Of a stretch of 40,866 nt of DNA, positions 3,789 through 27,022 are shown in pieces. A model generated the notes under the pieces. It searched no databases and was not told the DNA's origin. It was given only the letters and a program-made list of their open reading frames with translations. The first letter of the stretch is position 1. Each line of letters starts with the position of its first letter. Source of the DNA: Clostridia bacterium (GTDB lineage Bacteria > Bacillota > Clostridia > UMGS1883). Location: contig JAZLEL010000107.1 of NCBI GenBank assembly GCA_045615265.1, forward strand, positions 1 to 40,866, in the 5' to 3' direction. The position numbers and the translations under genes were made by a program.

Positions 3789-5165
3789 TTAGGTTTGGTC
3801 TTGTGGAAGATTTTTTAAAAAGTTCAATACAAGCGGTGCCGAAATAAAAAACGCAAGCACATCTGCTATTGCCTGAGCCGATTGAACTCCGAAAAGTCCA
3901 AAAAGTTTTGTCAGAACCAACAAAATTGGTATAAATAATATTCCGCTCCTGAGCATTGATAAAAAAGTTGCTTTTTTATTTTCTCCTATACTCTGAAAAA
4001 GCATATTTGAACAGATTGTCAACGGGTGGAAAAAAAGTGCTAAAAGCTGCAGTTTAAGACTGACTGTGCCTATCTCAATAACCATCGGGTCATCACGAAA
4101 GATTCCAATTAAGTGATTTGAAAACAACAAGCCAACCACAACAAACACACCCAGAAGCAGTTCTCCTGCCCCGAAGGTAAAGTAAAAAGAACTTTTCACT
4201 CTTGAATATATCTTTGCCCCATAATTAAATGACGCAACGGGCTGAAATCCCTGACCGATACCAAGCCCTACCGCAAAGATAAAGAATGTAATTCTGTTTA
4301 CAATCGACATTGCCGCGACAGCAGCATCACCGCCAACTCCGCCTGCCAGATTATTTAACGTCATTGTAGCAATACTGCTTAATCCCTGACGGCAAAGGCT
4401 TGGAAAGCCTGTTGCCATAATCTGAAATATTCCTTTGGGGTTATCCTTTATTAATTTTACATTAAGCTGACTCACTGTTTTTCCTCTAAAAAACATTGAA
4501 ATTAAAATTAAAAATCCCACAACTTGTGAAATCGCCGTAGAAAGCCCTGCACCTGCTATACCCATATCAAGACCGAATATCAGTATGGGGTCGCATATTA
4601 TATTCAAAACGCCGCCAATGGTAAGACCAATCATAGCGAAAAATGCTTTACCTTCATATCTTAAAATATTATTTAAAGCAAAGCTCGCCATAGTAAGCGG
4701 AGAAGCAATAAGAATGTATATTCCGTATTCCCTTGCATAAGGAAGAATTGTTTCCGTACTGCCAAGCATTCGCATAAGAGGGTCTATGAACATCAGACCC
4801 AAAGCACCAATCAGCGTACCTACAAAAAGACATGCCAGGACACTTAAGGTTGCAAAAACACTTGCACTGTGAGCATCTTTCTGCCCTAATTTCCTTGCAA
4901 TTATACTTCCTGCTCCGTGGCCAAACATAAATCCAAATGCCTGAATAATTGCCATTAAGCCAAATACAACACCTACTGCACCGCTGGCACTGTTACCAAG
5001 CTCACTTACAAAATATGTGTCTGCCATGTTATAGACGTTTGTTACCAGCATACTGATAGTTGTTGGAATGCCCAATGTAATTACAAGCTTAGGTATGGGC
5101 CAGGTGGTCATTTTTTCATATTGATTTACTTCATTATTCTGTTTCATTTGTTCATCTCTTTTCAT
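3789..5165 (-). CDS. MATE family efflux transporter
   Basis: About 12 hydrophobic segments, with YNMADTYFV, NIICDPILIF, GIAGAGLSTAISQ and QPVASFNYGA. Confidence 0.93.
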   Translation of the reverse strand: MKRDEQMKQNNEVNQYEKMTTWPIPKLVITLGIPTTISMLVTNVYNMADTYFVSELGNSASGAVGVVFGLMAIIQAFGFMFGHGAGSIIARKLGQKDAHSASVFATLSVLACLFVGTLIGALGLMFIDPLMRMLGSTETILPYAREYGIYILIASPLTMASFALNNILRYEGKAFFAMIGLTIGGVLNIICDPILIFGLDMGIAGAGLSTAISQVVGFLILISMFFRGKTVSQLNVKLIKDNPKGIFQIMATGFPSLCRQGLSSIATMTLNNLAGGVGGDAAVAAMSIVNRITFFIFAVGLGIGQGFQPVASFNYGAKIYSRVKSSFYFTFGAGELLLGVFVVVGLLFSNHLIGIFRDDPMVIEIGTVSLKLQLLALFFHPLTICSNMLFQSIGENKKATFLSMLRSGILFIPILLVLTKLFGLFGVQSAQAIADVLAFFISAPLVLNFLKNLPQDQT

Positions 5166-5216
5166 AGTATGGGGGGATTATAAAAGCTTTATAATCTGGA
5201 TGCCTATTTTTTAGTA

Positions 5217-5285
5217 ATTGCGAGGCATAAGGTTTAGATGCAAACCCTTTTGGGTGCTAGTTCATATCAAGCTAAGAACAAAAAA
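5217..5285. repeat. Bipartite cassette-boundary repeat, copy 1 (putative att site)
   Basis: attgcgaggcataaggtttagatgca (5217-5242), a 16-nt spacer, then agttcatatcaagctaagaacaaaaaa (5259-5285). Abuts the stop codon at 5286. Confidence 0.9.
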
Positions 5286-5597
5286 TTATTCAGCTTCTTG
5301 CAACGCCTTTTTATATTTTTGTTTCAATTCTTCATGGTTAATATCATTTAACGAAACAGAATAAATTCCTTTTGAAAAATTTTCTCTACTCATCTTGTGC
5401 AACAACCCAAATACACTCCATATCATAAAATCAACACCGTTGCCTGTAATCGCATTCTTATCTTCTGCACTATGCCACGCTTTGGAAAGTTTTTGTGAGA
5501 AAAAACCATTATCATTTCTTAATTCCCCATCCGAAATATCTATTTCTTCAGGAAAAAGCTTTAAAGTATCTTGAATTAATTTTTCTATATTCTCCAT
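5286..5597 (-). CDS. Hypothetical protein (~103 aa), single-gene cassette
   Basis: RBS AAAGGAG about 8 nt upstream of ATG 5597. Lies between repeat copies 1 and 2. No recognisable motif. Confidence 0.7.
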   Translation of the reverse strand: MENIEKLIQDTLKLFPEEIDISDGELRNDNGFFSQKLSKAWHSAEDKNAITGNGVDFMIWSVFGLLHKMSRENFSKGIYSVSLNDINHEELKQKYKKALQEAE

Positions 5598-5634
5598 AGT
5601 CATTTCTCCTTTCGTCAATATTCGACATATCCAT

Positions 5635-5703
5635 ATTGCGAGGCATAAGGTTTAGATGCAGCCAATATTCAACGAAAGTTTGTGTCAAGTTAGTCCAAAA
5701 AAA
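5635..5703. repeat. Bipartite cassette-boundary repeat, copy 2
   Basis: Identical 26-bp block (5635-5660), a 16-nt spacer, then agtttgtgtcaagttagtccaaaaaaa (5677-5703). Confidence 0.9.
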
Positions 5704-5736
5704 TTGTTGTTTCTCACTTGTAATTTAATGTGTATT

Positions 5737-6981
5737 TTACAATCTTTTTAAAACTTCTTGCTTTTTTTCTTCAAATTCTTCTTTTGTAAGAATTCCTTTT
5801 TCATATAAGTTTGCCAATTTATCCAAAAGCTCTATATCGGTATCGTTGGTTTTGCTTGAAGATAGGTTATCAGCATTGGCTTGTATAACTACATCATAAT
5901 CCTTTTCTGGAATTAATTTAGTAAATATTTTATAGGCATTTGAACTAAATGTTATTACTTGCTCTAAATCACTAGAATATAATAATACAACTTGTTCATC
6001 GTGTATTGTTGATGTTCCTTTAACTTCATTAACCGCTTTTCGGCTTCCCACAATAGCACCAACATCACCAGCAATTAAACCACCTATAACAGCCCCTTTA
6101 ATGGAAGAACCGCCTCCGCCACCACCTGTTATTTCGGTTGTGACATATTTTTGACCTATTGATCTAAAATATTTAATGTCATCTATTGAAATATCAACAC
6201 CCTGGCAACTATCTGTATTTAATAAACAAATCTTATCATCTTTTTTCCAATAACGCATTCTTCCGCTCAGATTAAAATCCGCTGAAGATATTTCAAGATA
6301 AACCGCTGGATCTATATCAAAAGGATGTCTACAAGAAACTTTTTCAACAAACATGCCATGTTTAATAGGTTCTGAATATTTGTACGCAATTTGTATCAAT
6401 GTATCTATATCGTTAGTGTATCCTGGATAAAAAGGAAATGCTATTTCACCCTGTGGTTCTAAAATTAACGCAAAATTTTTGACCGTACCATCATCTTTAC
6501 ACTTTTTTATACCAACAATTTTTTCAAAACTCTGTTTTTTGTCCCCTAATTCACGAGGATATAAAATCGTCTTGTTTTCAAGATTAATATCAGCCCATAT
6601 ACTAGGTCTATTTTCATATTCCCACATTAGTATTCTAGTGGCATTTTCATCAATTTCATATTTAACAGGTTTAGTGGCACATATAATACACTTTTTAAAT
6701 AGCCCTGCTATTTGAACTATATAGTAATTAGTAATGTCTTCTTTTTCGCACCCAAAATGGGCTGCAGCTTTTTCTCTACAAGCATCTTCTGAAAAACCAG
6801 AAAAATCCAAACGTATTCTCTCGCCATTCTCATCTGTTTCATTCAACCAATCTTGTTCTAGCTGTTCATCATAATAGATTTTCTCTCCACATTTTGTACA
6901 CAGAAAATAATTACTTACAAATTTGCCCAAACCATCTCTACCACAATTTTTACATTTAAAATAACTCCAGCATCTTTCCAT
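5737..6981 (-). CDS. Zn-ribbon / SHOCT domain protein, single-gene cassette
   Basis: N-terminal CKNC...CTKC, glycine-zipper-like GAVIGGLIAGDVGAIVG, and C-terminal SHOCT-like LDKLANLYEKGILTKEEFEEKKQEVL. Confidence 0.75.
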   Translation of the reverse strand: MERCWSYFKCKNCGRDGLGKFVSNYFLCTKCGEKIYYDEQLEQDWLNETDENGERIRLDFSGFSEDACREKAAAHFGCEKEDITNYYIVQIAGLFKKCIICATKPVKYEIDENATRILMWEYENRPSIWADINLENKTILYPRELGDKKQSFEKIVGIKKCKDDGTVKNFALILEPQGEIAFPFYPGYTNDIDTLIQIAYKYSEPIKHGMFVEKVSCRHPFDIDPAVYLEISSADFNLSGRMRYWKKDDKICLLNTDSCQGVDISIDDIKYFRSIGQKYVTTEITGGGGGGSSIKGAVIGGLIAGDVGAIVGSRKAVNEVKGTSTIHDEQVVLLYSSDLEQVITFSSNAYKIFTKLIPEKDYDVVIQANADNLSSSKTNDTDIELLDKLANLYEKGILTKEEFEEKKQEVLKRL

Positions 6982-7035
6982 ATTTCATTTCTCCCTATTT
7001 TCATAATTTAGACATTATCCAACATAATTTGCATT

Positions 7036-7103
7036 ATTGCGAGGCATAAGGTTTAGATGCAAACCTTTTTAGCGCAAGTTCGCAATAAGTTAGGAACAAA
7101 AAA
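7036..7103. repeat. Bipartite cassette-boundary repeat, copy 3
   Basis: Identical 26-bp block (7036-7061), a 15-nt spacer, then agttcgcaataagttaggaacaaaaaa (7077-7103). Abuts the stop codon at 7104. Confidence 0.9.
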
Positions 7104-7769
7104 TCACTCTTTGTTTTTAATTAGCAAATATACTTGTGACATTATTTTTATATCTGGCACCTTTGCATTTTTAACTTGTGTATCTATAATTTCTCTCATC
7201 AGCGCCATACAGAATTTCATTCCCACATTTTCAGCGATTATATCTTTCAAGTATATATTTTCGCCATCATACTTTTCAGGGAAATTAACTGTAAAATAAG
7301 TCATTTCTTTCTTTTTTTCTTCCCATATTCTATAGTGAAGCGTTCCCTTCCCATCAATTTTTATTGTGGTACATTTTTTTAAGAATTTATCAATTTGTCC
7401 AGCCTTAATCCATGTGGCCATATTTTCATTTATATATACCTCATCCCAAGTTTTAAAAACAGGAAAATGCAAAAGCAAATTTCTTATAAAACTAAACAGA
7501 CCATCCGCTATTACGCCTTCAAGCGGCGGTCTTCCGCCATTTTTCATCCATTCCACATATTGTTTTATCGGTTCATAACTTAATAATTCTTTATATATAG
7601 AAAAAGCTTCTCTTAATTTAAAGAAACGAATATGAGCTTGTTCGTTAAAAAAACTATCGTTAGTTATTTCATCATACAAATCATAGAAACGATTATAAAA
7701 CAAGGTAAGAACTTGTATTTCCTTTTCATTTGGCATATTACTTTCCATTTTATCATGACCTTTATACAT
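7104..7769 (-). CDS. Hypothetical protein with a HEPN-like RX4H motif
   Basis: 221-aa ORF with IRNLLLHFP in a helical-looking region. The HEPN call is an inference from the motif alone. Confidence 0.65.
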   Translation of the reverse strand: MYKGHDKMESNMPNEKEIQVLTLFYNRFYDLYDEITNDSFFNEQAHIRFFKLREAFSIYKELLSYEPIKQYVEWMKNGGRPPLEGVIADGLFSFIRNLLLHFPVFKTWDEVYINENMATWIKAGQIDKFLKKCTTIKIDGKGTLHYRIWEEKKKEMTYFTVNFPEKYDGENIYLKDIIAENVGMKFCMALMREIIDTQVKNAKVPDIKIMSQVYLLIKNKE

Positions 7770-7772
7770 TTA

Positions 7773-9062
7773 CTACTTTTTCATCTCTGATTTTATCCAC
7801 AGAAAACCAAAAAATATAAAGTTTACACTCAATACCACAAAACTCCATTTTTCAGACAACCCAAATATATTATGTATTACCGGAATTGCACCAATGCCAC
7901 TTATAAAAGCGAGTATATATAATAATATATTTAACAACAATGAGTTTTTGTTTTTTCTTTTTTCTTGATAAATCTTCAAATACGAAACCTTAAATTTTAT
8001 AGCTTTCTCATACAACCTAAACGAATTTGTTTGTTTCATATTTTCTATCGCATTTAAAGTAATAATTGGCACTTTAGTCAAGTATGTAATTCTTTCAAGT
8101 TCAAGTTGCTTGTCTATTGTAGTTTCTAGATCATTTGTTATATCAAAATTTATAATTTGCTTGAGCATAAAATACATTTTCATAACTTCAAGCAATTGAC
8201 AATCAAAAAATGCTTGTTGTTCACAATTACTATCGATGTCTGTAACAACTCCCATGTACTCTTGCGAATAATATTTATATGCATGATTGTTGTTAATATT
8301 TTTTAAACTTATCTCTATTTCATTTACCCCTAACACATCCAAAAAATATTTTTGTAAATTCTTTAATTTGTCGGTCACTACAAATATGTTATGTACAAAG
8401 CTAAAACTATCAATTTGATATTTATTATTTGCCACTTTTTCAAGACATCCTGATATATTATTAAAAATTATATCCGATATCTTGTCTACTTTATCTTCAA
8501 ATTTATTTTCATTAAAATAACATATTTTTTCCGTTTGCAGTATGTTGTAGTTATTACTTCTTCCAAATATCTCGTCTTTCTTTAAGGGAACACCTGTTTT
8601 ATAATCGATAAGTTCATAGTTAACAAATAACATATCATTCATAAAAAAAGCCAAAGGATCAACCTGAAGAACTCGATTATTAATTGTAACCAAAAACCTC
8701 TCCATTGTTATATAAAACGGAATTTTAAAAAAGCGCTCATCTAAGATGAGTTCCATAGAATGCGACATATTAAAAATCCACGAAACATTATCTATTTCAT
8801 CTTTGTAATCATCTAAAGTTTTGTCTTTTTGTTTAATTTCAAAATCAAAAGTTGTTAGTTGTTTATAAGGATCAAAATTTCTTTTATATCCTAGAATTCC
8901 TTTTTGCGTTAGTAATTTATTTTCCGTAACAATACTCTCTATATGAAATTGCTTCAAAATATTTTCTTTTCTTTTTGCTTTTTTTAAACTAAAAATTTTG
9001 CCTTTAGATTCATTAATTTTATATGCTGTCATAAAAACAACACAATCTTGTTTTTCTTTCAT
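7773..9062 (-). CDS. Hypothetical protein with two C-terminal TM helices
   Basis: 429-aa ORF with a soluble N-terminus, then LLLNILLYILAFISGIGAIPVI and FVVLSVNFIFFGFLWI. Confidence 0.75.
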   Translation of the reverse strand: MKEKQDCVVFMTAYKINESKGKIFSLKKAKRKENILKQFHIESIVTENKLLTQKGILGYKRNFDPYKQLTTFDFEIKQKDKTLDDYKDEIDNVSWIFNMSHSMELILDERFFKIPFYITMERFLVTINNRVLQVDPLAFFMNDMLFVNYELIDYKTGVPLKKDEIFGRSNNYNILQTEKICYFNENKFEDKVDKISDIIFNNISGCLEKVANNKYQIDSFSFVHNIFVVTDKLKNLQKYFLDVLGVNEIEISLKNINNNHAYKYYSQEYMGVVTDIDSNCEQQAFFDCQLLEVMKMYFMLKQIINFDITNDLETTIDKQLELERITYLTKVPIITLNAIENMKQTNSFRLYEKAIKFKVSYLKIYQEKRKNKNSLLLNILLYILAFISGIGAIPVIHNIFGLSEKWSFVVLSVNFIFFGFLWIKSEMKK

Positions 9063-9121
9063 CTTTTAAAACACGCTTTCATTTAATAGCATTATTATAC
9101 AACAAATTCATTTGCATTTAT

Positions 9122-10138
9122 TTAATTATCCCCATTTTCAATAGTATTGCGCATGCGCTTAATACTGCTACGAATAATTTCTATATACATTTCATCCTGC
9201 TTATCTTCGCTTAATTTTCTTACCAAGTTAACTGTAGACAAAAATCTTTCGTTCTCGTGTAAAGACTCATAATAATGGTTCAATTGTACTAAAGAATTTT
9301 TATAAACAAAAAGGGATGTTCCAGCTATAACTTCTACTATGGCTCCTCCTATAGCAGTTATAATTGAAACTTCATATTTTCCGCTCATAAAAAATGGCAA
9401 GACAACTGCCACTACTATAAGAACAAAACCTAACACGCACATCCATACAGCAAGACGAAAAGAATCTTTTGCTTGAGTTTTACTAAGTGTATAGTATGCT
9501 TTAATTTCAGCCATATTAACAAGCATCAATCTCAAAGCATCATTTTCATCTGTATTATCTTCTGCAACAGAACTCTTTTGATTATTATGTCTAAACGATT
9601 TATTAACTGGCATAACTGTGTTTTTTAACTTTGTAGAATAATTTAATAACTCATCATTATCTTGTTGCCTTTTTAAAACAGAGGTTATTAAAGCCATGCA
9701 ACTTGTGATCAAAATGCTTATTAACGGCAATAGCATTTCCTTAAACAAGCTATATGGAGAAAAAAATAATGAATATACAAAAATTAGCATCAATATGACT
9801 AATATCATCATCATTACAAGTGCCAAAATCTTAATTTTGTTAATATTAAAATTTTTAGGAACTTGCTTTTTTATCGTTTTAAACTCAACCATAAATTTTT
9901 CATAATCACTTATCGAAAGATAGAATTCTGCCTCATAACCATCTTCAGCATAAGTTTCAAAACTTATTACTCCTCTTTTTGATAGTTGGTTAAGATAATT
10001 TTCTAAACTTGATAAATTTATATCTCCAAAAAAATTTGAATAATTTGATTCAGTAAATATAAATTCCTTTTCTTTCTTAAAAATATTTATGATTTTTTGC
10101 ATGACACAAAATTTTTCCTTTGTTGTCAAGTCAAACAC
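9122..10138 (-). CDS. Membrane protein with a TRADD-N-associated 2TM-like C-terminal domain
   Basis: YYTLSKTQAKDSFRLAVWMCVLGFVLI...GGAIVEVIAGTSLFVYKNSLVQLNHYYESL resembles the TRADD-N-associated membrane domain. Two further TM helices lie upstream. Confidence 0.7.
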   Translation of the reverse strand: MFDLTTKEKFCVMQKIINIFKKEKEFIFTESNYSNFFGDINLSSLENYLNQLSKRGVISFETYAEDGYEAEFYLSISDYEKFMVEFKTIKKQVPKNFNINKIKILALVMMMILVILMLIFVYSLFFSPYSLFKEMLLPLISILITSCMALITSVLKRQQDNDELLNYSTKLKNTVMPVNKSFRHNNQKSSVAEDNTDENDALRLMLVNMAEIKAYYTLSKTQAKDSFRLAVWMCVLGFVLIVVAVVLPFFMSGKYEVSIITAIGGAIVEVIAGTSLFVYKNSLVQLNHYYESLHENERFLSTVNLVRKLSEDKQDEMYIEIIRSSIKRMRNTIENGDN

Positions 10139-10185
10139 ATATATTCCCCCTTAATCCGAATGTCCTTACACAATCCATTTATAAT

Positions 10186-10214
10186 ATTATACCATAATAT
10201 TACAAGATTCGCAA
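10186..10214 (-). promoter_or_regulatory. sigma-A promoter for the cargo genes downstream of the recombinase
   Basis: Minus strand TTGCGA-17 nt-TATAAT with extended TG. Confidence 0.65.
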
Positions 10215-10259
10215 TTGTTATTAAGAAAAAGGTCGGTAGCATATTGAACAAAATTCATT

Positions 10260-11861
10260 TTACTGATTTCTATATGAAACATAAACATCAAAATCTTCTA
10301 TGTTCATTAAGTCTTCTTTATTCCGTCGTAGTTTATTTAATCTGTTACCAATGATGTAGTATGCTATTTTTGTCACCCAAGATGCAAATCTGCATTTTCC
10401 GTGATACTTATGTAAAATTTCAAATGATCTTAACAAAGCATCCTGACATATATCATCATAATCTCTCATCATTTGCCAGTATGTATTAAAACCAGCTTTC
10501 CATAAATTATTTCTTATAAACTCTTTTATCTTCTTAAAGGATTCTTCATAAAGCAAATTAAGTGCAATTCTATCTCCATCCAATGCAGCTTGACTCATTT
10601 GATATTCTCGTATTTTATATAATTCATTTTCATTGTAGTCTTTAATTTCAACCGCTATTTCATTGCTGATTTCTATTCTATCAAGATATTGTTTAACTAC
10701 CTCTTCATCATATTTGTAAACCAGTAATTTATCAGCTATAGCCTTTTCAATTTCATCATTTGATACAGTAATTGAATTTTTGCAATTTCTATTTCCATGC
10801 TCAATCCTGCTTGCACATCTCCAAAAAAGTTCATTTCCTTTCTTCGTTTGACGTGTCCTTCGTCTATAACTAGCACCACATTCACTGCAAAATATTCTAC
10901 CGGATAGTAAATCATTTGAATATCTGTTTTTCTTCCTGACAGTCTTATTTTTAACAGTTGATACATTGCTTCTGTTCTCCTTCTCTTGCTGAACTCTGTT
11001 AAACATTGATTTTGTTATAATTGGTTCGTGATGGTTTGTAACCAGGTATTTTGCTTTCTGTCCTTTATTATTAACTTGTTTTCCATCAAGAAAATTTTCG
11101 ACATAAGTTTTCTGTCCTATTACTTCGCCGGTAAGCTTTTCATTTGATATCAGTTTTGAAATTGTTTCGCTACTCCACTTATCTTTTCCTGTTGGCGATT
11201 TAATCCCTGCATTTTCTAATTCTTTTGATATTCCTGATAAGCTATATCCGTTTAGGTACATCTCGAAAATCAATTTTACTATCGTAGCCTCAAATTCATT
11301 GATTATCAAATTTCCATTTTCGTCTTGAGAATATCCATAACAGATTCTATCATATATCTTCGATTTTCCTGTCTTAAATCCATATTCTATACCAAACTTT
11401 ATGTTGCCGCTTTTTGATTCACTTTCCGACTGAGCTACTGTTAGCATTATGGCAAAATCGCTATCACTTGAAGTGGATAATTTCATACCATTCATTTCAA
11501 TCCATACATCTACCCCAAGTGATTTTAAATATCTGAGATTAACGAGACCCTCATAAACATTTCTTCCAAATCTACTAATAGATTTTACAAGAATCAAATC
11601 AATCTCGCCAATCTTACATTTTTCTATCATCTCGTTAAAAGATTTTCTGTTTTCTACTCTTAATCCTGATTTAGTATCGCAATATACACCAACAAAGTCC
11701 CAGTCTGGATTTCTCCTGATCTCGGACTCGTAATTTTTTACCTGAGATTGAAGAGAGGTCGCCTGGTCATTAGTTTCTGTACTGACTCTACAATATGCAG
11801 CCACTCTCAATCTCTTATTCGATTTCTTTTCCTTTTGGGGTATTACAATTACTTCAGGCAT
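10260..11861 (-). CDS. Large serine recombinase with C-terminal sigma-70 region-2-like domain
   Basis: AAYCRVST (catalytic Ser), VKSISRFGRN, recombinase domain RICYGY...NEKLTG...HEPII, Zn ribbon CSECG...WRC...C, plus an extra ~115-aa tail. Confidence 0.92.
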   Translation of the reverse strand: MPEVIVIPQKEKKSNKRLRVAAYCRVSTETNDQATSLQSQVKNYESEIRRNPDWDFVGVYCDTKSGLRVENRKSFNEMIEKCKIGEIDLILVKSISRFGRNVYEGLVNLRYLKSLGVDVWIEMNGMKLSTSSDSDFAIMLTVAQSESESKSGNIKFGIEYGFKTGKSKIYDRICYGYSQDENGNLIINEFEATIVKLIFEMYLNGYSLSGISKELENAGIKSPTGKDKWSSETISKLISNEKLTGEVIGQKTYVENFLDGKQVNNKGQKAKYLVTNHHEPIITKSMFNRVQQEKENRSNVSTVKNKTVRKKNRYSNDLLSGRIFCSECGASYRRRTRQTKKGNELFWRCASRIEHGNRNCKNSITVSNDEIEKAIADKLLVYKYDEEVVKQYLDRIEISNEIAVEIKDYNENELYKIREYQMSQAALDGDRIALNLLYEESFKKIKEFIRNNLWKAGFNTYWQMMRDYDDICQDALLRSFEILHKYHGKCRFASWVTKIAYYIIGNRLNKLRRNKEDLMNIEDFDVYVSYRNQ

Positions 11862-11865
11862 AATC

Positions 11866-12468
11866 TTATAATCCGCTTACTATATTAAGCATGTCATGCG
11901 CCGTATTTATTCCCATGTTGTTTCCTCTGCTTCTTTCTACTTTAGCATTTTGAACAGCTTTGAATAATTCTAAGTTAATGATTGCAGGATGAGTATTAGT
12001 GGTCAAGTATCGATCTACTAGTCCTTTATTATCAACCTGTGTTCCATTAACGGTAACTGTTTTCCGCAAAAGAACTGAACCTACGTATTTTTCATTTGAT
12101 AACAATTTATCTATCGCCTCTCTGTTCCATCTGTCTTTACCTGATGGAGACTTTACTCCTCTCTCGAATAATTCGTTGGCAATTTTACCTAAACTGTATC
12201 CTGAAAGATAGCTTTCAAAGATCCACATTACAGTCAATGCTTCTTCAGGGTTAATAATTAATTCACCCTTATCATTTTGAGAATATCCATAGCATATTCT
12301 CTTTGCTAATTTCGATGTTCCGTTTTGAAATCTTTCTTTATTTGCGTTTTTTATTTCACTACTTCTTGTTTTCATTATATCACTCTCTTCCATATTAATT
12401 TCATTATTCAAATAGCCATTTTCGTAAGAATCTTTATTTTCAATTTTATAATTAATGTGTTTTTTCAT
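11866..12468 (-). CDS. Recombinase-domain-only protein (no catalytic resolvase domain)
   Basis: RICYGY...SPSGKDRW...LLSNEKYVG...HPAII is paralogous to the neighbour's recombinase domain. No YxRVS motif and no Zn ribbon. Confidence 0.85.
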   Translation of the reverse strand: MKKHINYKIENKDSYENGYLNNEINMEESDIMKTRSSEIKNANKERFQNGTSKLAKRICYGYSQNDKGELIINPEEALTVMWIFESYLSGYSLGKIANELFERGVKSPSGKDRWNREAIDKLLSNEKYVGSVLLRKTVTVNGTQVDNKGLVDRYLTTNTHPAIINLELFKAVQNAKVERSRGNNMGINTAHDMLNIVSGL

Positions 12469-12517
12469 TTCATTTAAACTCCTTTCGTTTATTATTACAT
12501 TAAATTTGTTTATGAAA

Positions 12518-12549
12518 AAAGTGCCGTAATCTGTGAATTACAGCACTTT
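12518..12549. terminator. Intrinsic terminator-like hairpin upstream of the recombinase genes
   Basis: aaagtgccgtaat / attacagcacttt inverted repeat with A and T runs on both sides. Confidence 0.65.
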
Positions 12550-12614
12550 CGTTTTTTTCTATATTAAGTTTTAATTTTCGTTAAATTTTCGAGCAGGTTT
12601 GTCAACTTATCAAT

Positions 12615-12641
12615 AGTTCGTGTCAAGTCGGGAACAAAAAA
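12615..12641. repeat. Half copy (block B only) of the cassette-boundary repeat
   Basis: agttcgtgtcaagtcgggaacaaaaaa. The 26-bp block A is absent from its expected position. Confidence 0.8.
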
Positions 12642-12668
12642 TACTTTGATATAATATAGTCGTCTATT

Positions 12669-13028
12669 TTACTTATATTCCCTGAATTGTACGGACACAT
12701 CATCGGGGTCATAAACGTAAAAATACTTTGCATCAGGCTCCGGATGACGAATGTCTGACGGATTCATGCCAAGCGAAACAGCCCGAGCGTGAACCTTCTC
12801 AAGATTATCTGTAGCAAAGCATAAAAACATACCTTTTCCCTCAAACAATTGACCCTCGGGCATGGCTATTAATTCTACTTGGGTATCGTTTTCAGAATCA
12901 TAAAGATAAGCAACATTTCCGCCGCCTGCAGAAAATTGCTTACCGATCTTAAGCTCTACAAGTTCGGTATAAAATTTTAAAGATTTCTCAAAATCTTTAA
13001 CTCTTAACGATATGTGATGAAATTTCAT
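12669..13028 (-). CDS. VOC / glyoxalase family protein
   Basis: FHHISLRVKDFEKSLKFY...YFYVYDPD. RBS GAAAGGA upstream of ATG 13028. Confidence 0.88.
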   Translation of the reverse strand: MKFHHISLRVKDFEKSLKFYTELVELKIGKQFSAGGGNVAYLYDSENDTQVELIAMPEGQLFEGKGMFLCFATDNLEKVHARAVSLGMNPSDIRHPEPDAKYFYVYDPDDVSVQFREYK

Positions 13029-13104
13029 GTTAATTTTCCTTTCTATAATACAAATAATAAATGCCATTACTTTTCATTTGCAAAACAACACAAGTTCCTC
13101 TGTG

Positions 13105-13167
13105 TCAAAGTTTTCGATATTCTTCATTCCCCATGGAAAGAAGGGTTCTTTGAATTGTGTGTTTTAT
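13105..13167 (-). pseudogene. 5' remnant of a possible DNA alkylation repair (AlkD-like) gene
   Basis: RBS GAGGTG, then ATA-KHTIQRTLLSMGNEEYRKL-stop, which resembles N-termini of clostridial alkylation repair proteins. Only 20 codons. Confidence 0.4.
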
Positions 13168-13204
13168 GTCAATCACCTCTATCAAAAACCATTTTTGCTA
13201 ATCT

Positions 13205-16402: not shown

Positions 16403-16515
16403 TTCATAATTATGCACAAAGTTTTTACACATTTGTCCGTTTTTATGGGCATTTTAATTTTTTTTAAAAATTTTTATGCAAAAAGCTTGCATAATTATTC
16501 AAAACGAGTTAGAAT
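16403..16515 (+). promoter_or_regulatory. argC promoter with ARG boxes (ArgR/AhrC sites)
   Basis: TTGCAT(16487)-17 nt-TAGAAT(16510). Boxes TTCATAATTATGCA (16403), AAAATTTTTATGCA (16467) and TGCATAATTATTCA (16488). The core is shared with the argG promoter. Confidence 0.75.
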
Positions 16516-16551
16516 GTATTTACCACAATTTTTGTTTGGAGAGATTTTACC

Positions 16552-17484
16552 ATGAAAAAGGTATTCATTGACGGCAGTTCCGGCACCACCGGACTGAGGA
16601 TTGTTGAAAGACTTTCCAGTAGAAAAGACATAGAACTTATAAAGCTTCCAGAAGAGCTTCGCAAGGATAACGATGCGAGAAAAGAAGCACTTAATTCTTG
16701 CGACATTGCTTTTCTGTGTCTTCCCGATGCGGCAGCTATTGAAGCGATTAATATGATAGAAAATGAAAACGTGGTTGTTCTTGACACCTCTACGGCACAC
16801 AGAACAAACGACGGCTGGGCGTACGGCTTCCCCGAACTTTCCAAAGAGCATTTTGAAAAGGTTGCTTCAGCAAAGAGAATTGCAGTACCCGGTTGTCACG
16901 CAAGCGGATTTATCGCCCTTGTATATCCCCTTATTGAAAAAGGTATTATTGATAAGGATACTCTTCTCACCTGCCACAGCATCACAGGTTATAGTGGCGG
17001 CGGCAAGAAAATGATTGCAGAGTATGAGGATGCAGAAAGAGCTGAACTTTTTGATGCACCCCGTCAGTATGCATTAGGTCAAACCCATAAGCATCTTCCT
17101 GAAATGTGCAAGGTGACAGGGCTTAAAAACGCCCCCATCTTCTGCCCTATCGTATCGGATTTTTACAGCGGAATGGCAGTAACAGTACCGATTTTCAAAA
17201 GCCAGCTTAACGATGGTTTTACCGTGGAAGATATCAGGAAAGTATATAAAGAAAAGTACACAGGCGAAATTGTTACTTATCTTGAAAGCATTGATGAAGG
17301 CGGACTTATAAGTGCAAACACACTTTCCTTTAAGGATTCAATGCAGATAACCGTTTCCGGTAATGATGAGAGAATTCTCCTCATCGCAAGATATGACAAT
17401 CTCGGCAAGGGTGCCTCCGGTGCGGCACTTGAATGTATGAACATCGCAATAGGAAATTCTCCCTTTGAGATGCTCGACATATGA
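16552..17484 (+). CDS. argC: N-acetyl-gamma-glutamyl-phosphate reductase (short type)
   Basis: VFIDGSSGTTG, STAHR, PGCHASG, TGYSGGGK, DNLGKGASG. Confidence 0.95.
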   Translation: MKKVFIDGSSGTTGLRIVERLSSRKDIELIKLPEELRKDNDARKEALNSCDIAFLCLPDAAAIEAINMIENENVVVLDTSTAHRTNDGWAYGFPELSKEHFEKVASAKRIAVPGCHASGFIALVYPLIEKGIIDKDTLLTCHSITGYSGGGKKMIAEYEDAERAELFDAPRQYALGQTHKHLPEMCKVTGLKNAPIFCPIVSDFYSGMAVTVPIFKSQLNDGFTVEDIRKVYKEKYTGEIVTYLESIDEGGLISANTLSFKDSMQITVSGNDERILLIARYDNLGKGASGAALECMNIAIGNSPFEMLDI

Positions 17485-17498
17485 AAGGAATGATATCT

Positions 17499-18722
17499 AT
17501 GTTTAAAATAATAGAAGGCGGCATTTGTGCTCCTAAAGGATTTTCTGCAAATGGTATACATTGCGGAGTACGTAAAAATCGTACAAAGCGTGATATTGCA
17601 CTTATTTTAAGTGAAGCACCCTGTGCTGCTGCTGCGACATATACAACAAACTTAGTTAAGGGTGCTCCTCTTACAGTTACAAAAAACAATATTGCAAACG
17701 GTTATGCACAGGCGGTTATCTGCAACAGCGGTAATGCAAACACCTGTAACGCAGATGGTATAGAGGTTGCACAGAAGATGTGTGCTCTTGTTGCTGAAGA
17801 AATTGGCATTGATAAAAATGACGTTATCGTAGCATCGACAGGCGTCATCGGTCAGCCGCTTAATATTGAGCCTATAAAAGAAGGTCTTCCCGAGCTTGTA
17901 AAGGGACTTGGTAGCGATGCTTTGCACAGCAGCTATGCATCAGAAGCAATTCTTACAACTGACCTTGTTGAAAAGGAGATTGCAATAAGCTTCACCCTTG
18001 GCGGAAAAGAATGCAGGATTGCAGGAATTGCAAAGGGAAGCGGTATGATTCATCCCAATATGGCAACAATGCTGGTATTTATTACAACGGATGTCGCAAT
18101 CTCTCCCGAAATGCTCCAGAAAGCACTTTCAACGGATATAAAAAACACTTTCAATATGATAAGTATTGACGGAGATACATCTACAAATGATATGGTAAGT
18201 GTTATGGCAAACGGACTTGCAGGAAATACTATGATTGAGTCTGAGGGCGAGGATTTTGAGATTTTTGCAAAAGCACTTAATACAGTTACAATCCATCTTT
18301 GCAAAATGATTGCAGGCGATGGTGAGGGTGCGACAAAGCTTCTTGAATGTACGGTAAGCGGTGCAAAGGACGAAAAGTGTGCAAAAGCAGTTGCAAAATC
18401 CGTTATCTGCTCTTCCCTGCTTAAGGCGGCGATGTTCGGTGCCGATGCAAACTGGGGCAGAGTGCTTTGTGCAATAGGTTACAGCGGTGTCCAGGTAGAC
18501 GTTAATAAGATTGACGTATCCTTTTCTTCAAAGGAAGGAACAATCGCAGTTTGTAAAAACGGAGCAGGTGTCGATTTTTCTGAAGAAATTGCAAAGAAAA
18601 TATTGCTTGAAAAGGAAATTAATATTATAATAGAACTTAATTACGGTAATTCATCCGCTACTGCTTGGGGATGTGACTTAACCTACGATTACGTTAAGAT
18701 AAACGGCGATTACAGAACCTGA
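17499..18722 (+). CDS. argJ: Glutamate N-acetyltransferase (ornithine acetyltransferase)
   Basis: NSGNANTC, STGVIG, KGSGMIHPNMATML, DGDTSTND, DGEGATK. Confidence 0.96.
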   Translation: MFKIIEGGICAPKGFSANGIHCGVRKNRTKRDIALILSEAPCAAAATYTTNLVKGAPLTVTKNNIANGYAQAVICNSGNANTCNADGIEVAQKMCALVAEEIGIDKNDVIVASTGVIGQPLNIEPIKEGLPELVKGLGSDALHSSYASEAILTTDLVEKEIAISFTLGGKECRIAGIAKGSGMIHPNMATMLVFITTDVAISPEMLQKALSTDIKNTFNMISIDGDTSTNDMVSVMANGLAGNTMIESEGEDFEIFAKALNTVTIHLCKMIAGDGEGATKLLECTVSGAKDEKCAKAVAKSVICSSLLKAAMFGADANWGRVLCAIGYSGVQVDVNKIDVSFSSKEGTIAVCKNGAGVDFSEEIAKKILLEKEINIIIELNYGNSSATAWGCDLTYDYVKINGDYRT

Positions 18723-26922: not shown

Positions 26923-26930
26923 AAAATTTA

Positions 26931-26980
26931 TGAATTTTTATGCAAAAAAGCTTGCATAATTATACATTTAGTGTTATACT
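26931..26980 (+). promoter_or_regulatory. argGH promoter with tandem ARG boxes
   Basis: TGAATTTTTATGCA (26931) and TGCATAATTATACA (26953). TTGCAT-17 nt-TATACT with extended TG. Confidence 0.8.
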
Positions 26981-27022
26981 GATTTCAATGAAAGAAAGAT
27001 AACTGAAAAGGAGCTAATTAAA

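What the first reader, a model, noticed from the sequence alone, without database searches (positions are those of the whole stretch)
5217..12641. Integron-like gene-cassette array next to a large serine recombinase
Seen: a ~68-bp bipartite repeat at 5217, 5635 and 7036. It has an identical 26-bp block A (attgcgaggcataaggtttagatgca), a 15-16 nt spacer that differs in each copy, and a 27-bp semi-conserved block B (consensus agttcgtgtcaagttaggaacaaaaaa). The copies delimit units of 418 bp and 1401 bp that each hold one gene, plus a larger unit containing the recombinases. In two of three copies block B starts exactly at the upstream gene's stop codon. All genes are co-oriented and functionally unrelated. 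Established: integrons use tyrosine IntI and attC hairpins, and neither is seen here; Firmicute elements can also pile up in tandem and leave repeated att sites. Inference: these are recombination sites through which the serine recombinase captures, excises or reorders minimal gene cassettes.
Basis: partly seen in the sequence, partly recalled or inferred. Interest (0 to 1): 0.9.

Follow-up and report, generated by a model that had tools for sequence, protein, structure and literature searches.

The report
Integron-like gene-cassette array in gut Clostridia
The three repeats are junction sites of a single-gene cassette array of a kind found in many uncultured gut Clostridia, built around a nearly invariant 26-base core at which cassettes are swapped between genomes, and the neighbouring serine recombinase is not generally part of it.

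Summary
Block A occurs exactly three times in the window (5217, 5635, 7036; 0 expected by chance). A fourth, block-B-only copy lies at 12614-12642. All genes are on the minus strand, inside a low-GC island.

The repeat is not private to this locus. The core is found in 27 of 87 genomes of the order and 52 of 401 sampled genomes of the class. It is often arrayed at spacings of 0.2-3 kb.

Across 232 distinct sites, 24 of the 26 core positions are at least 90% conserved. Ninety-five inter-site units have a median length of 542 bp, and 72 hold one sense ORF. ORFs next to sites are co-oriented 276 to 25.

Cassettes shared between genomes at 90-98% identity sit beside different neighbours. Their identity breaks inside the core.

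No tyrosine recombinase lies near any array examined. Serine recombinase genes lie near only a few. The window's 2.4-kb recombinase module recurs at 97% in one congener with entirely different cargo.

Verdict: this is a real cassette system, integron-like in architecture. It lacks IntI and a supported attC-like hairpin, and its recombinase is unidentified.

The parts
3789..5165 (-). Flanking MatE-family transporter gene (about 40% GC, host-like), directly downstream of the last site
   Evidence: Pfam MatE E=5e-47; GC profile
5177..5206 (-). Module C': promoter-like TAGGCA-18-TATAAT between the terminal core and MatE. The conserved motif (TATAATCTGGATGCC on the + strand) lies at 5190-5204
   Evidence: Consensus scan, 10 of 12 matches. 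The same module precedes the core in 30 of 236 distinct sites. Promoter function is inferred
5217..5285 (-). Junction site 1 (terminal): core A 5217-5242, spacer 5243-5258, block B 5259-5285
5286..5618 (-). Cassette ORF, 110 aa as listed (probable ATG start near 5600, after AAAGGAG); no family match
   Evidence: An RNA-library contig covers 5438-5613
5610..5634 (-). Leader D': two TGTCGAA-type repeats plus the Shine-Dalgarno sequence, directly 3' of core A' in gene sense
   Evidence: Contig loose ends pile up at 5610
5635..5703 (-). Junction site 2: core A 5635-5660, spacer, block B 5677-5703
5737..6981 (-). Cassette ORF, 414 aa, with a C-terminal SHOCT domain
   Evidence: Pfam SHOCT E=7e-8. 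A 2389-nt contig of run X2 carries it at 96% identity with unlike sequence on both sides
7036..7103 (-). Junction site 3: core A 7036-7061, spacer, block B 7077-7103
7104..10138 (-). Three cargo genes with no sites between them: 221 aa, 429 aa, and 338 aa with a CyanoTRADDas_TM (weakly SLATT-like) membrane domain
10139..10177 (-). D'-like leader of the 338-aa gene. The 97%-identical recombinase module ends exactly at its edge
   Evidence: Alignment with L030, read against the D' consensus; inference
10178..12613 (-). LSR module shared with congener G032 at 96.8% over 2466 bp. It comprises an outward promoter-like site (10186-10214, TTGCGA-17-TATAAT with TG), the LSR gene (10260-11861), a 200-aa recombinase-domain-only ORF (11866-12468), a terminator-like hairpin plus T-run (12515-12546), and a decayed spacer/core remnant (12585-12613)
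12614..12642 (-). Block-B-only copy at the head of the island, 27 nt after the glyoxalase stop codon. It is 75% identical to its G032 counterpart, against 97% for the module
12669..13067 (-). Flanking glyoxalase-family gene
   Evidence: Pfam Glyoxalase E=5e-16

Best explanation
The repeats are junction sites of a gene-cassette array belonging to a family spread among uncultured gut Clostridia.

In gene sense each junction reads as follows:
- the stop codon of the upstream gene;
- B', two roughly 11-nt phased repeats, semi-conserved;
- a short variable spacer;
- A', a 26-bp core invariant except for 2-3 central-left positions;
- an optional promoter-like module C';
- D', two TGTCGAA repeats plus the Shine-Dalgarno sequence;
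- the start codon of the next gene.

A cassette is the stretch from one core to the next. It carries its own ribosome-binding leader and 3' arm.

Cassettes are exchanged within and between genomes by recombination whose crossovers fall inside the core. The most likely mechanism is a double-strand, site-specific reaction catalysed by an enzyme encoded elsewhere (in trans). That step is inferred.

In this window the array is the distal part of a low-GC island whose head is a 2.4-kb LSR module. That module sits exactly where a core and spacer would normally lie, between a B arm and a D leader. It carries a decayed core remnant and an outward promoter-like site. I read it as a separate mobile or cassette-like unit, or as the integrase of the island, lodged in an array junction. 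I do not read it as the demonstrated cassette recombinase.
For: Shown:
- The core is exact three times here, with 0 expected.
- It is present in 25 of 61 relatives, 27 of 87 genomes of the order and 52 of 401 class genomes in 26 of 216 genera, with reversed-pattern controls at 0 in the class sample.
- Among 232 distinct sites, every core position is at least 90% conserved except positions 8-9.
- The 95 distinct core-to-core units have a median of 542 bp. Seventy-two hold one sense ORF and 12 hold none.
- ORFs of at least 90 aa within 300 nt of a core lie 276 on the opposite strand and 25 on the same strand.
- The 79 cassette ORFs scanned hit 41 unrelated Pfam families: DUF559 in 6, WapI immunity in 3, plus HAD, GH1, EutH, VanY and others. 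Phd-Doc pairs occur in 7 loci.
- Among 53 matches of at least 250 bp and 90% identity between loci, 15 of 39 mapped left ends fall within -2..+1 of the core start and 7 of 19 right ends fall at +24..+26.
- In 25 printed site pairs sharing the B side and 13 sharing the D side, the other flank is unrelated right up to the core.
- The same chromosomal place (next to cysE/cysS) holds different cassettes in G029 and G006.
- Contigs of four public runs pile up on the site bins (summed depth 38-177 in three DNA runs, against 15 or less in other bins). They break at 5610, 5660 and 7065-7071.
- No tyrosine recombinase was found among 1096 ORFs around sites or in 12 further arrays of 10-20 kb.

Inferred: that the exchange is enzyme-catalysed and site-specific.
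Against: - No excised circle, empty site or presence/absence polymorphism of a single cassette was found. No such locus pair exists in the set. The read joints are short-sided and unreliable. Fourteen congeners have no synteny downstream of tgt.
- No recombinase was identified. The C106-like tyrosine recombinase occurs in 18 of 27 core-bearing genomes and 35 of 60 core-lacking genomes. LSR homologues occur in 16 of 25 and 17 of 36.
- The variable trinucleotide (positions 8-10) is linked to neither flank. Neighbouring sites share it no more than chance predicts (32 of 93, against 0.32 expected). This also fits crossovers scattered through a 26-bp homology.
- Only 86 of 232 sites have a recognisable B arm and 109 of 232 a D leader.
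- Many arrays touch contig ends, so their heads are often unseen.
Confidence: 0.55

Rival explanations
1. An LSR is the cassette recombinase. LSR-headed arrays (this window, G032, and two in G347) are the complete platform, and the many headless arrays are the equivalent of CALINs, served in trans.
For: - Four arrays in three genomes have a co-oriented LSR gene at the gene-sense head, followed by variable cargo and then core sites.
- The window's module is 97% identical to that of G032, while all downstream genes differ.
- The two G347 copies are 94% identical up to about the stop codon and then diverge.
- The module occupies exactly the core/spacer position of a junction and keeps a core-like remnant.
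- The LSR has the YCRVST catalytic motif.
- G000 has only two serine-recombinase catalytic domains and three tyrosine recombinases in all.
- LSR genes are repeats at which assemblies break, so heads may be under-seen.
Against: - LSR homologues lie at only 6 distinct places (7 loci, one place fetched twice) among the roughly 150 site-bearing loci, close to what their genomic density would give by chance (my rough estimate).
- Arrays inside 120-250-kb contigs have none within the 10-20 kb examined.
- Nine of 25 repeat-bearing relatives have no LSR533 homologue at E<=1e-20, although they are incomplete genomes.
- Eight more distant LSR loci (at most 41% identity) have no sites nearby.
- From established knowledge: LSRs recombine unlike attP and attB sites and need matching central dinucleotides. 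Here every junction carries the same core, and arrays mix the CA and GG variants at random.
- A metagenome relative (85% identity) has cargo with C'-D' but no core in 3.3 kb.
Confidence: 0.2
2. The conserved junction is an expression adaptor that travels with horizontally transferred genes: a 3' arm or antisense terminator, an optional promoter, and a leader with the ribosome-binding site. Cassette exchange is then ordinary homologous or homology-facilitated recombination at these short conserved stretches, with no dedicated recombinase.
For: - D' contains the Shine-Dalgarno sequence, and C' and the module's outward site match sigma-70 consensus.
- C'-D' occurs without the core.
- On the A strand, the core's 3' part and the spacer can form AAGGTTT/AAACCTT followed by a T-run in 152 of 232 sites.
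- RNA-library contigs cover D plus the core.
- The central trinucleotide is unlinked to either flank.
- No recombinase was found nearby.
Against: - A 26-bp stretch at least 90% invariant across many families of a class is unusual for a promoter, leader or terminator. No Rfam family matches and there is no consensus structure or covariation.
- Promoter-like hits in the region are no more frequent than in shuffles (52 against 46.9).
- 26 bp is at or below the usual minimum for efficient homologous exchange (established knowledge), yet breakpoints concentrate there.
- Twelve of 95 units carry no ORF yet keep cores on both sides.
Confidence: 0.2
3. SCC-like tandem accretion. The units are remnants of independent LSR elements that integrated one after another into the same attB, each leaving an att scar.
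For: - The LSR is Ccr/XisF-like, well below those families' cut-offs.
- The repeats are direct repeats inside one island next to the LSR pair.
Against: - The units are 0.2-3 kb with one ORF and no recombinase.
- The same core is found at many unrelated chromosomal places without an LSR.
- The sites are not in a conserved target gene.
- All junctions are the same full site rather than attL/attR hybrids.
Confidence: 0.05

Closest known systems
Integrons and CALINs (IntI tyrosine recombinase, attI, attC; clusters of attC sites lacking an integrase)
   Same: Arrays of co-oriented, mostly single-ORF cassettes of a few hundred bp, carrying unrelated functions that include toxin-antitoxin pairs. A recombination-associated site lies at every junction. 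Content differs between relatives. Many arrays lack a neighbouring recombinase.
   Different: No IntI or other tyrosine recombinase lies nearby. The site is a sequence-invariant 26-bp core with phased arm repeats, not a structure-defined attC hairpin. Each cassette brings its own ribosome-binding leader. The hosts are Clostridia, and Cury et al. 2016 (PMC4889954, passages read) found no complete integron in Firmicutes.
rAID-1 clusters of Bacteroidales (Ross et al. 2019, bioRxiv 10.1101/471110; passages read)
   Same: Skewed GC, arrays of small co-oriented genes including immunity genes, and repetitive intergenic sequences described there as reminiscent of integrons. Gut bacteria.
   Different: rAID-1 clusters have a conserved XerD-family recombinase at their head; none is found here. 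The phylum and repeat are different, and the cargo here is far broader than immunity genes.
Xer-dependent modules (pdif modules of Acinetobacter plasmids, IMEX elements); characterisation recalled, apart from the reviews listed
   Same: Gene modules bounded by short sites and moved by a chromosomally encoded recombinase acting in trans, so no recombinase is needed in cis.
   Different: The core has CAT-N9-ATG rather than the dif-type CAT-N10-ATG spacing. It shares only 6 of 11 positions with the XerD arm of the best dif-like candidate in this genome (my reading). All sites are in direct orientation, not alternating.
SCC elements with CcrAB large serine recombinases
   Same: Tandem serine-recombinase ORFs in the island (only the 533-aa one is complete), and direct repeats at unit boundaries.
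   Different: See the fourth rival explanation: the units are single genes without recombinases, and the sites are not scars in one conserved target gene.

Membership tests
Integron | IntI-type tyrosine recombinase gene adjacent to the array | tested here: not met
   PF00589 hits in 5 genomes are never near arrays; where one shares a contig it lies 86 kb or 148 kb away. phmmer with 3 tyrosine recombinases found 0 hits among 1096 ORFs around sites and 0 in 12 further arrays.
Integron | attC: imperfect palindrome that folds as a single strand, defined by structure rather than sequence | tested here: not met
   Single-strand DNA folds of the window copies give z-scores of +0.35 to -1.76. RNAalifold on 50 sites finds 3 pairs and -0.29 kcal/mol. 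The only candidate helix is paired in 72.9% of cells, with no covariation beyond shuffles.
Integron | Short, mostly single-ORF, co-oriented cassettes whose content varies between relatives | tested here: met
Large serine recombinase (ORF 10260-11861) | Resolvase catalytic domain with the active-site Ser, plus a Recombinase domain and a zinc ribbon | tested here: met
   Pfam Resolvase 1e-22, Recombinase 3e-24, Zn_ribbon_recom 2e-15. The motif RVAAYCRVST is present. ORF 11866-12468 has the Recombinase domain only.
SCC-type tandem accretion | Each unit is an element integrated at an attB in a conserved gene, bounded by att scars | tested here: not met
   Units have a median of 542 bp and one ORF. 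The sites occur at many unrelated places.
Xer/dif-type modules | 28-bp site (11-6-11) resembling the host dif site | tested here: inconclusive
   A generic inner-palindrome scan of G000 gave 14 hits, one of them dif-like at C55:8033. The resemblance of the core to it is weak (my reading). The dif site was not verified in relatives.
Xer/dif-type modules | Recombinase supplied in trans by the host | not testable with these tools
   Absence of a cis recombinase is compatible but is not evidence for Xer.
rAID-1 | Conserved XerD-family recombinase heading the cluster | tested here: not met
REP/BIME or MITE repeats | Palindromic units scattered in intergenic DNA in both orientations | tested here: not met
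   Strong orientation bias, 276 to 25. No conserved hairpin. The sites are clustered in arrays.

The most novel reading that the evidence does not exclude
A Clostridial counterpart of the integron that evolved independently. A double-strand 26-bp core site with helically phased arm repeats captures single-gene cassettes, each of which brings its own ribosome-binding leader. Under this reading the arrays headed by a large serine recombinase are the complete platform and the many headless arrays are its CALIN-like form. Alternatively, a still unknown trans-acting enzyme does the work. Either way it would be a cassette-capture system with neither IntI nor attC, present in about one in eight sampled Clostridia genomes.
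Probability: 0.3. Interest if true: 0.9.

Novelty: new variant of a known kind. Interest (0 to 1): 0.8.

Why it matters
Cury et al. 2016 found no complete integron in any Firmicutes genome they surveyed. How gut Clostridia assemble small accessory genes is poorly understood.

Here a sequence-defined junction site marks hundreds of exchangeable single-gene units, including toxin-antitoxin pairs, immunity proteins, DUF559 nucleases, membrane proteins and enzymes. It occurs across many families of uncultured animal-gut Clostridia. If the exchange is enzyme-driven, this is a new route of gene capture in a dominant gut lineage.

The invariant 26-mer gives a direct handle for several things: PCR recovery of cassettes from metagenomes, finding the recombinase, and possibly a new site-specific recombination tool. 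If instead it is a portable expression adaptor, it would still be an unusual, widely shared regulatory module.

Tried and rejected
- **Known RNA families.** Rfam at E<=1 found nothing in window 4800-13200 or in L023 6000-11000.
- **attC-like or RNA structure.** None was supported.
- **Empty site.** The tgt locus in 14 congeners loses synteny right after tgt and has no glyoxalase, no close MatE and no sites, so no pre-insertion sequence could be obtained.
- **Single-cassette presence/absence between loci.** No such pair was found.
- **Read evidence for excision or circles.** All four runs were Logan contigs. The joints at 5243>5607/5621, 5661>7036 and others have 21-36 nt on their shorter side and were obtained at 90% likeness, which the tool itself flags as unreliable. 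I draw nothing from them. Parts of the stretch without cover are not evidence.
- **Candidate recombinases by co-occurrence.** LSR533 homologues and the C106-like tyrosine recombinase show no useful association. Y1 (HUH) transposases are absent from G000 and G029.
- **Neighbourhood clustering.** Clustering 1096 ORFs gave no recurrent neighbour apart from cargo and housekeeping genes.
- **Xer idea.** The resemblance to dif is weak. The papers read give no Clostridial dif sequence.
- **Plasmid and phage collections.** No match to the site. One viral contig has a site beside a cassette-like gene upstream of terminase and portal genes.
- **N-terminal half of the G347 recombinase.** Not found on the contigs tried.
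- **Defence-system models.** No hit for the cargo.
- **Prior description.** Eight literature searches found none. The core letters occur in no held paper; one unrelated sesame primer shares a 13-mer. Supplementary files were not consulted.


Full report
**1. The observation**

Block A (26 nt) is present exactly at 5217, 5635 and 7036 on the + strand. No match appeared in 100 shuffles, even allowing three mismatches. It occurs nowhere else in the 1.42-Mb, 139-contig genome. The repeat finder recovers the 74-nt family with spacings of 418 and 1401 bp. It also finds a fourth copy of block B alone at 12614-12642.

All ORFs of the region are on the minus strand. Read in gene sense, each site begins at or just after a stop codon and ends shortly before the next start. 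The stretch from about 5.2 to 12.6 kb is 26-33% GC, against 35-44% in the flanking 1-kb windows. It lies between a MatE transporter gene and a glyoxalase gene followed by tgt.

Island genes:
- an unassigned 110-aa ORF;
- a 414-aa SHOCT-domain protein;
- three genes without sites between them (221 aa, 429 aa, and 338 aa with a CyanoTRADDas_TM domain);
- a 533-aa large serine recombinase (LSR);
- a 200-aa ORF with only the Recombinase domain.

**2. The repeat is a widespread, arrayed element**

Allowing up to 3 mismatches, block A occurs in 25 of 61 relatives, in two families of the order. Copies often cluster 0.2-2 kb apart, for example six on one contig of G035.

A 17-nt part of it, with up to 1 mismatch, is found in 27 of 87 genomes of the order. 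An IUPAC form, with up to 1 mismatch, is found in 52 of 401 evenly drawn genomes of the class, in 26 of 216 genera. The reversed-pattern control gave no match in that class sample and only scattered single matches in the order search.

All listed records are Clostridia MAGs from animal guts (Oscillospiraceae, Acutalibacteraceae, Ruminococcus, Congzhengia, Ructibacterium and others). One viral contig has a copy. The plasmid and phage collections have none.

**3. Anatomy of the site**

From 232 distinct sites, every core position is at least 90% conserved except positions 8-9. There, CA(C) (103 sites) and GG(C) (79 sites) dominate.

An alignment of 50 full sites gives this gene-sense consensus:
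- a T-run;
- B', roughly GTCCTAACTTGACACGAACT, forming with the spacer two phased copies of about 11 nt;
- an A-rich spacer;
- the core;
- ATGGATATGTCGAATnTTGTCGAAAGGAG, that is two TGTCGAA repeats plus the Shine-Dalgarno sequence.

A B arm is recognisable in 86 of 232 sites and a D leader in 109 of 232. A third module, C', lies between core and leader in 30 of 236 sites. C' reads TTGGCA-18-TATATA in gene sense and TAGGCA-18-TATAAT in the window. It also occurs without a core. The B and D repeats are inverted relative to each other around the core; this is my reading.

**4. The units behave as cassettes**

The 139 loci held 243 cores on the majority strand and 95 distinct core-to-core units of at most 4 kb. 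Unit lengths run from 44 to 3259 bp, with a median of 542 bp. Seventy-two units hold one sense ORF of at least 50 aa, 9 hold two, 2 hold more, and 12 hold none.

Of ORFs of at least 90 aa within 300 nt of a core, 276 lie on the strand opposite block A and 25 on the same strand.

Seventy-nine cassette ORFs matched 41 Pfam families. DUF559 (6 ORFs) and WapI-like immunity (3 ORFs) were the most frequent. The rest are unrelated enzymes, transporters and surface proteins. A near-identical Phd-Doc pair recurs in 7 loci.

**5. Exchange at the core**

Between different loci there were 53 matches of at least 250 bp and 90% identity. Of the ends that could be mapped near a core, 15 of 39 left ends fall within -2..+1 of the core start and 7 of 19 right ends fall at +24..+26. 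This is what is expected if identity runs into a core shared by all sites and stops at its far edge.

Printed side by side, 25 site pairs share the sequence on the spacer/B side, and 13 pairs share the D side. In these pairs the other flank differs right up to the core. One example is a 1.86-kb unit that is 98% identical between genomes of two families (L027 and L033). The locus set holds a few places twice because they were fetched by two routes. Sites and units were de-duplicated by sequence; the match pairs were not fully de-duplicated.

The variable trinucleotide differs in the three best B-side pairs (98%). It is the same in only some D-side pairs. Neighbouring sites share it in 32 of 93 cases, against 0.32 expected. 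So it is linked to neither flank.

The same chromosomal neighbourhood (cysE, cysS, transketolase) carries arrays with different content in G029 and G006.

In four public runs, three of metagenomic DNA and one RNA library, contigs pile up on the site bins. In the three DNA runs summed depth there is 38-177, against 15 or less in other bins. Many contigs break at 5610, 5660 and 7065-7071. One 2389-nt contig carries the 414-aa gene at 96% identity in another context.

**6. No recombinase in cis, and none identified**

- PF00589 hits in five genomes are never near arrays.
- Three tyrosine recombinases of this genome found no relative among 1096 ORFs around sites, nor in 12 further arrays of 10-20 kb taken from large contigs of other families.
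- Resolvase-domain hits in G029, G035, G349 and G347 lie on other contigs. The exceptions are one place in G035 and one 30 kb from a site in G349.
- Y1 transposases are absent from G000 and G029.
- Co-occurrence is uninformative. LSR533 homologues are present in 16 of 25 repeat-bearing relatives and 17 of 36 others. The C106-like tyrosine recombinase is present in 18 of 27 and 35 of 60.

**7. The serine recombinase module**

Window 10178-12643 is 96.8% identical to a stretch in congener G032. Nothing else in the two islands is similar except the sites.

The shared part ends on one side exactly where a D-like leader of the next gene begins. On the other side it ends at block B, which is only about 75% identical. 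Inside the module, next to B, lies a decayed spacer/core remnant. Then come a hairpin with a T-run and the two ORFs. At the far end is the only TG-extended promoter-like site of the region, facing the cargo.

In G032 the gene upstream of the module is a cassette that elsewhere (L141) is followed by a normal site. The module thus occupies the core/spacer position of a junction in two different arrays.

A metagenome relative (85% identity) again has different cargo, with C'-D' but no core in 3.3 kb. In G347, from another family, two arrays begin with 94%-identical copies of an LSR that is 40% identical to this one. These copies diverge at about the stop codon. Eight loci with other LSR relatives (at most 41% identity) have no sites.

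The LSR has the YCRVST motif. The 200-aa ORF lacks a catalytic domain.

**8. Structure and RNA tests**

There is no Rfam match. Single-strand folds of the window copies are unremarkable. RNAalifold on 50 sites finds no structure. The one plausible helix (AAGGTTT/AAACCTT around the loop AGATGC) is paired in 72.9% of cells but shows no covariation, because one side never varies. On the A strand it is followed by a T-run in 152 of 232 sites. An antisense terminator role therefore cannot be excluded.

**9. Reading**

The best-supported account is a cassette array whose units recombine at a 26-bp core, probably through a double-strand, site-specific reaction by an enzyme acting in trans. The window's LSR module would then be a separate unit lodged at a junction, or the integrase of the island. 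Confidence is 0.55.

The rivals are:
- the LSR is the cassette enzyme, with headed and headless arrays (0.2);
- the junction is a portable expression adaptor exchanged by homologous recombination (0.2);
- SCC-like accretion (0.05).

What is shown is the anatomy, the distribution, the orientation bias, the unit sizes and the breakpoints. What is inferred is the chemistry and the catalyst.

**10. Comparison and novelty**

The architecture is integron-like, and CALIN-like where there is no head. But the IntI test fails and the attC test is not met.

It resembles rAID-1 of Bacteroidales (passages read) without that system's XerD-family gene. It resembles Xer-dependent modules in having no cis recombinase, but the likeness of the core to dif is weak.

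Eight literature searches and a search for the core letters found no description. Supplements were not seen.

I rate it a new variant of a known kind (site-bounded cassette arrays). There is a fair chance that it is a new recombination system.

Noticed in passing
window 10260-11861 (minus strand), residues about 419-527: The LSR carries a C-terminal stretch resembling sigma-70 region 2 of ECF sigma factors (NCBIfam SigY E=2.5e-8 and about 15 other sigma models, all below their cut-offs; Pfam Sigma70_r2 E=0.003). A recombinase fused to a sigma-region-2-like domain is unusual.
   Followed up: no
L023 8489-8722, 9553-9782 and 10471-10705; similar units in L024, L026, L027, L059, L131, L136, L139 and others: Non-coding units of about 180-245 bp lie between two cores (or between a core and a B arm). 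They are built of about four TCGATAT and four ATATCGA heptamers, each separated by a small hairpin. One unit folds with z = -7.55 against shuffles and has no Rfam match. Twelve of 95 units hold no ORF.
   Followed up: partly
L032 8645-9013, L046, L048, L062, L066, L073 and others: The most frequent cassette encodes a DUF559 (Vsr-like endonuclease fold) protein. Its 3' end overlaps a GC-rich palindrome, and it follows the core directly without a B arm.
   Followed up: partly
window 11866-12468; G046:C33 and G012:C87 (L179, L182): A recombinase-domain-only ORF directly upstream of a full LSR recurs in two other genomes at 47-50% identity. There it carries internal stop codons, suggesting a decaying or repurposed paralogue.
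   Followed up: no
own genome, contig C55 near 8033 (outside the window): A 28-nt sequence with the arm/spacer/arm pattern of a Firmicute-type dif site is the best candidate for the chromosome's dif among 14 pattern hits. It was not verified.
   Followed up: no
window 16463-16516 and 26927-26981: Two similar stretches of about 55 nt (78-91% identical) lie upstream of + strand operons, the first of them the semialdehyde-dehydrogenase/ArgJ genes at 16552-18722. They may be a shared operator or promoter (families D8 and D20).
   Followed up: no
window about 16.2-16.6 kb: Gene orientation switches from minus to plus, and GC skew changes sign between the 16-17 kb and 17-18 kb windows. This may reflect only gene-strand bias.
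   Followed up: no
L160 1-1243 (viral contig): A full B-spacer-core site and a 376-aa unassigned gene sit immediately upstream of terminase and portal genes, so a cassette-type junction lies inside a phage-like contig.
   Followed up: partly
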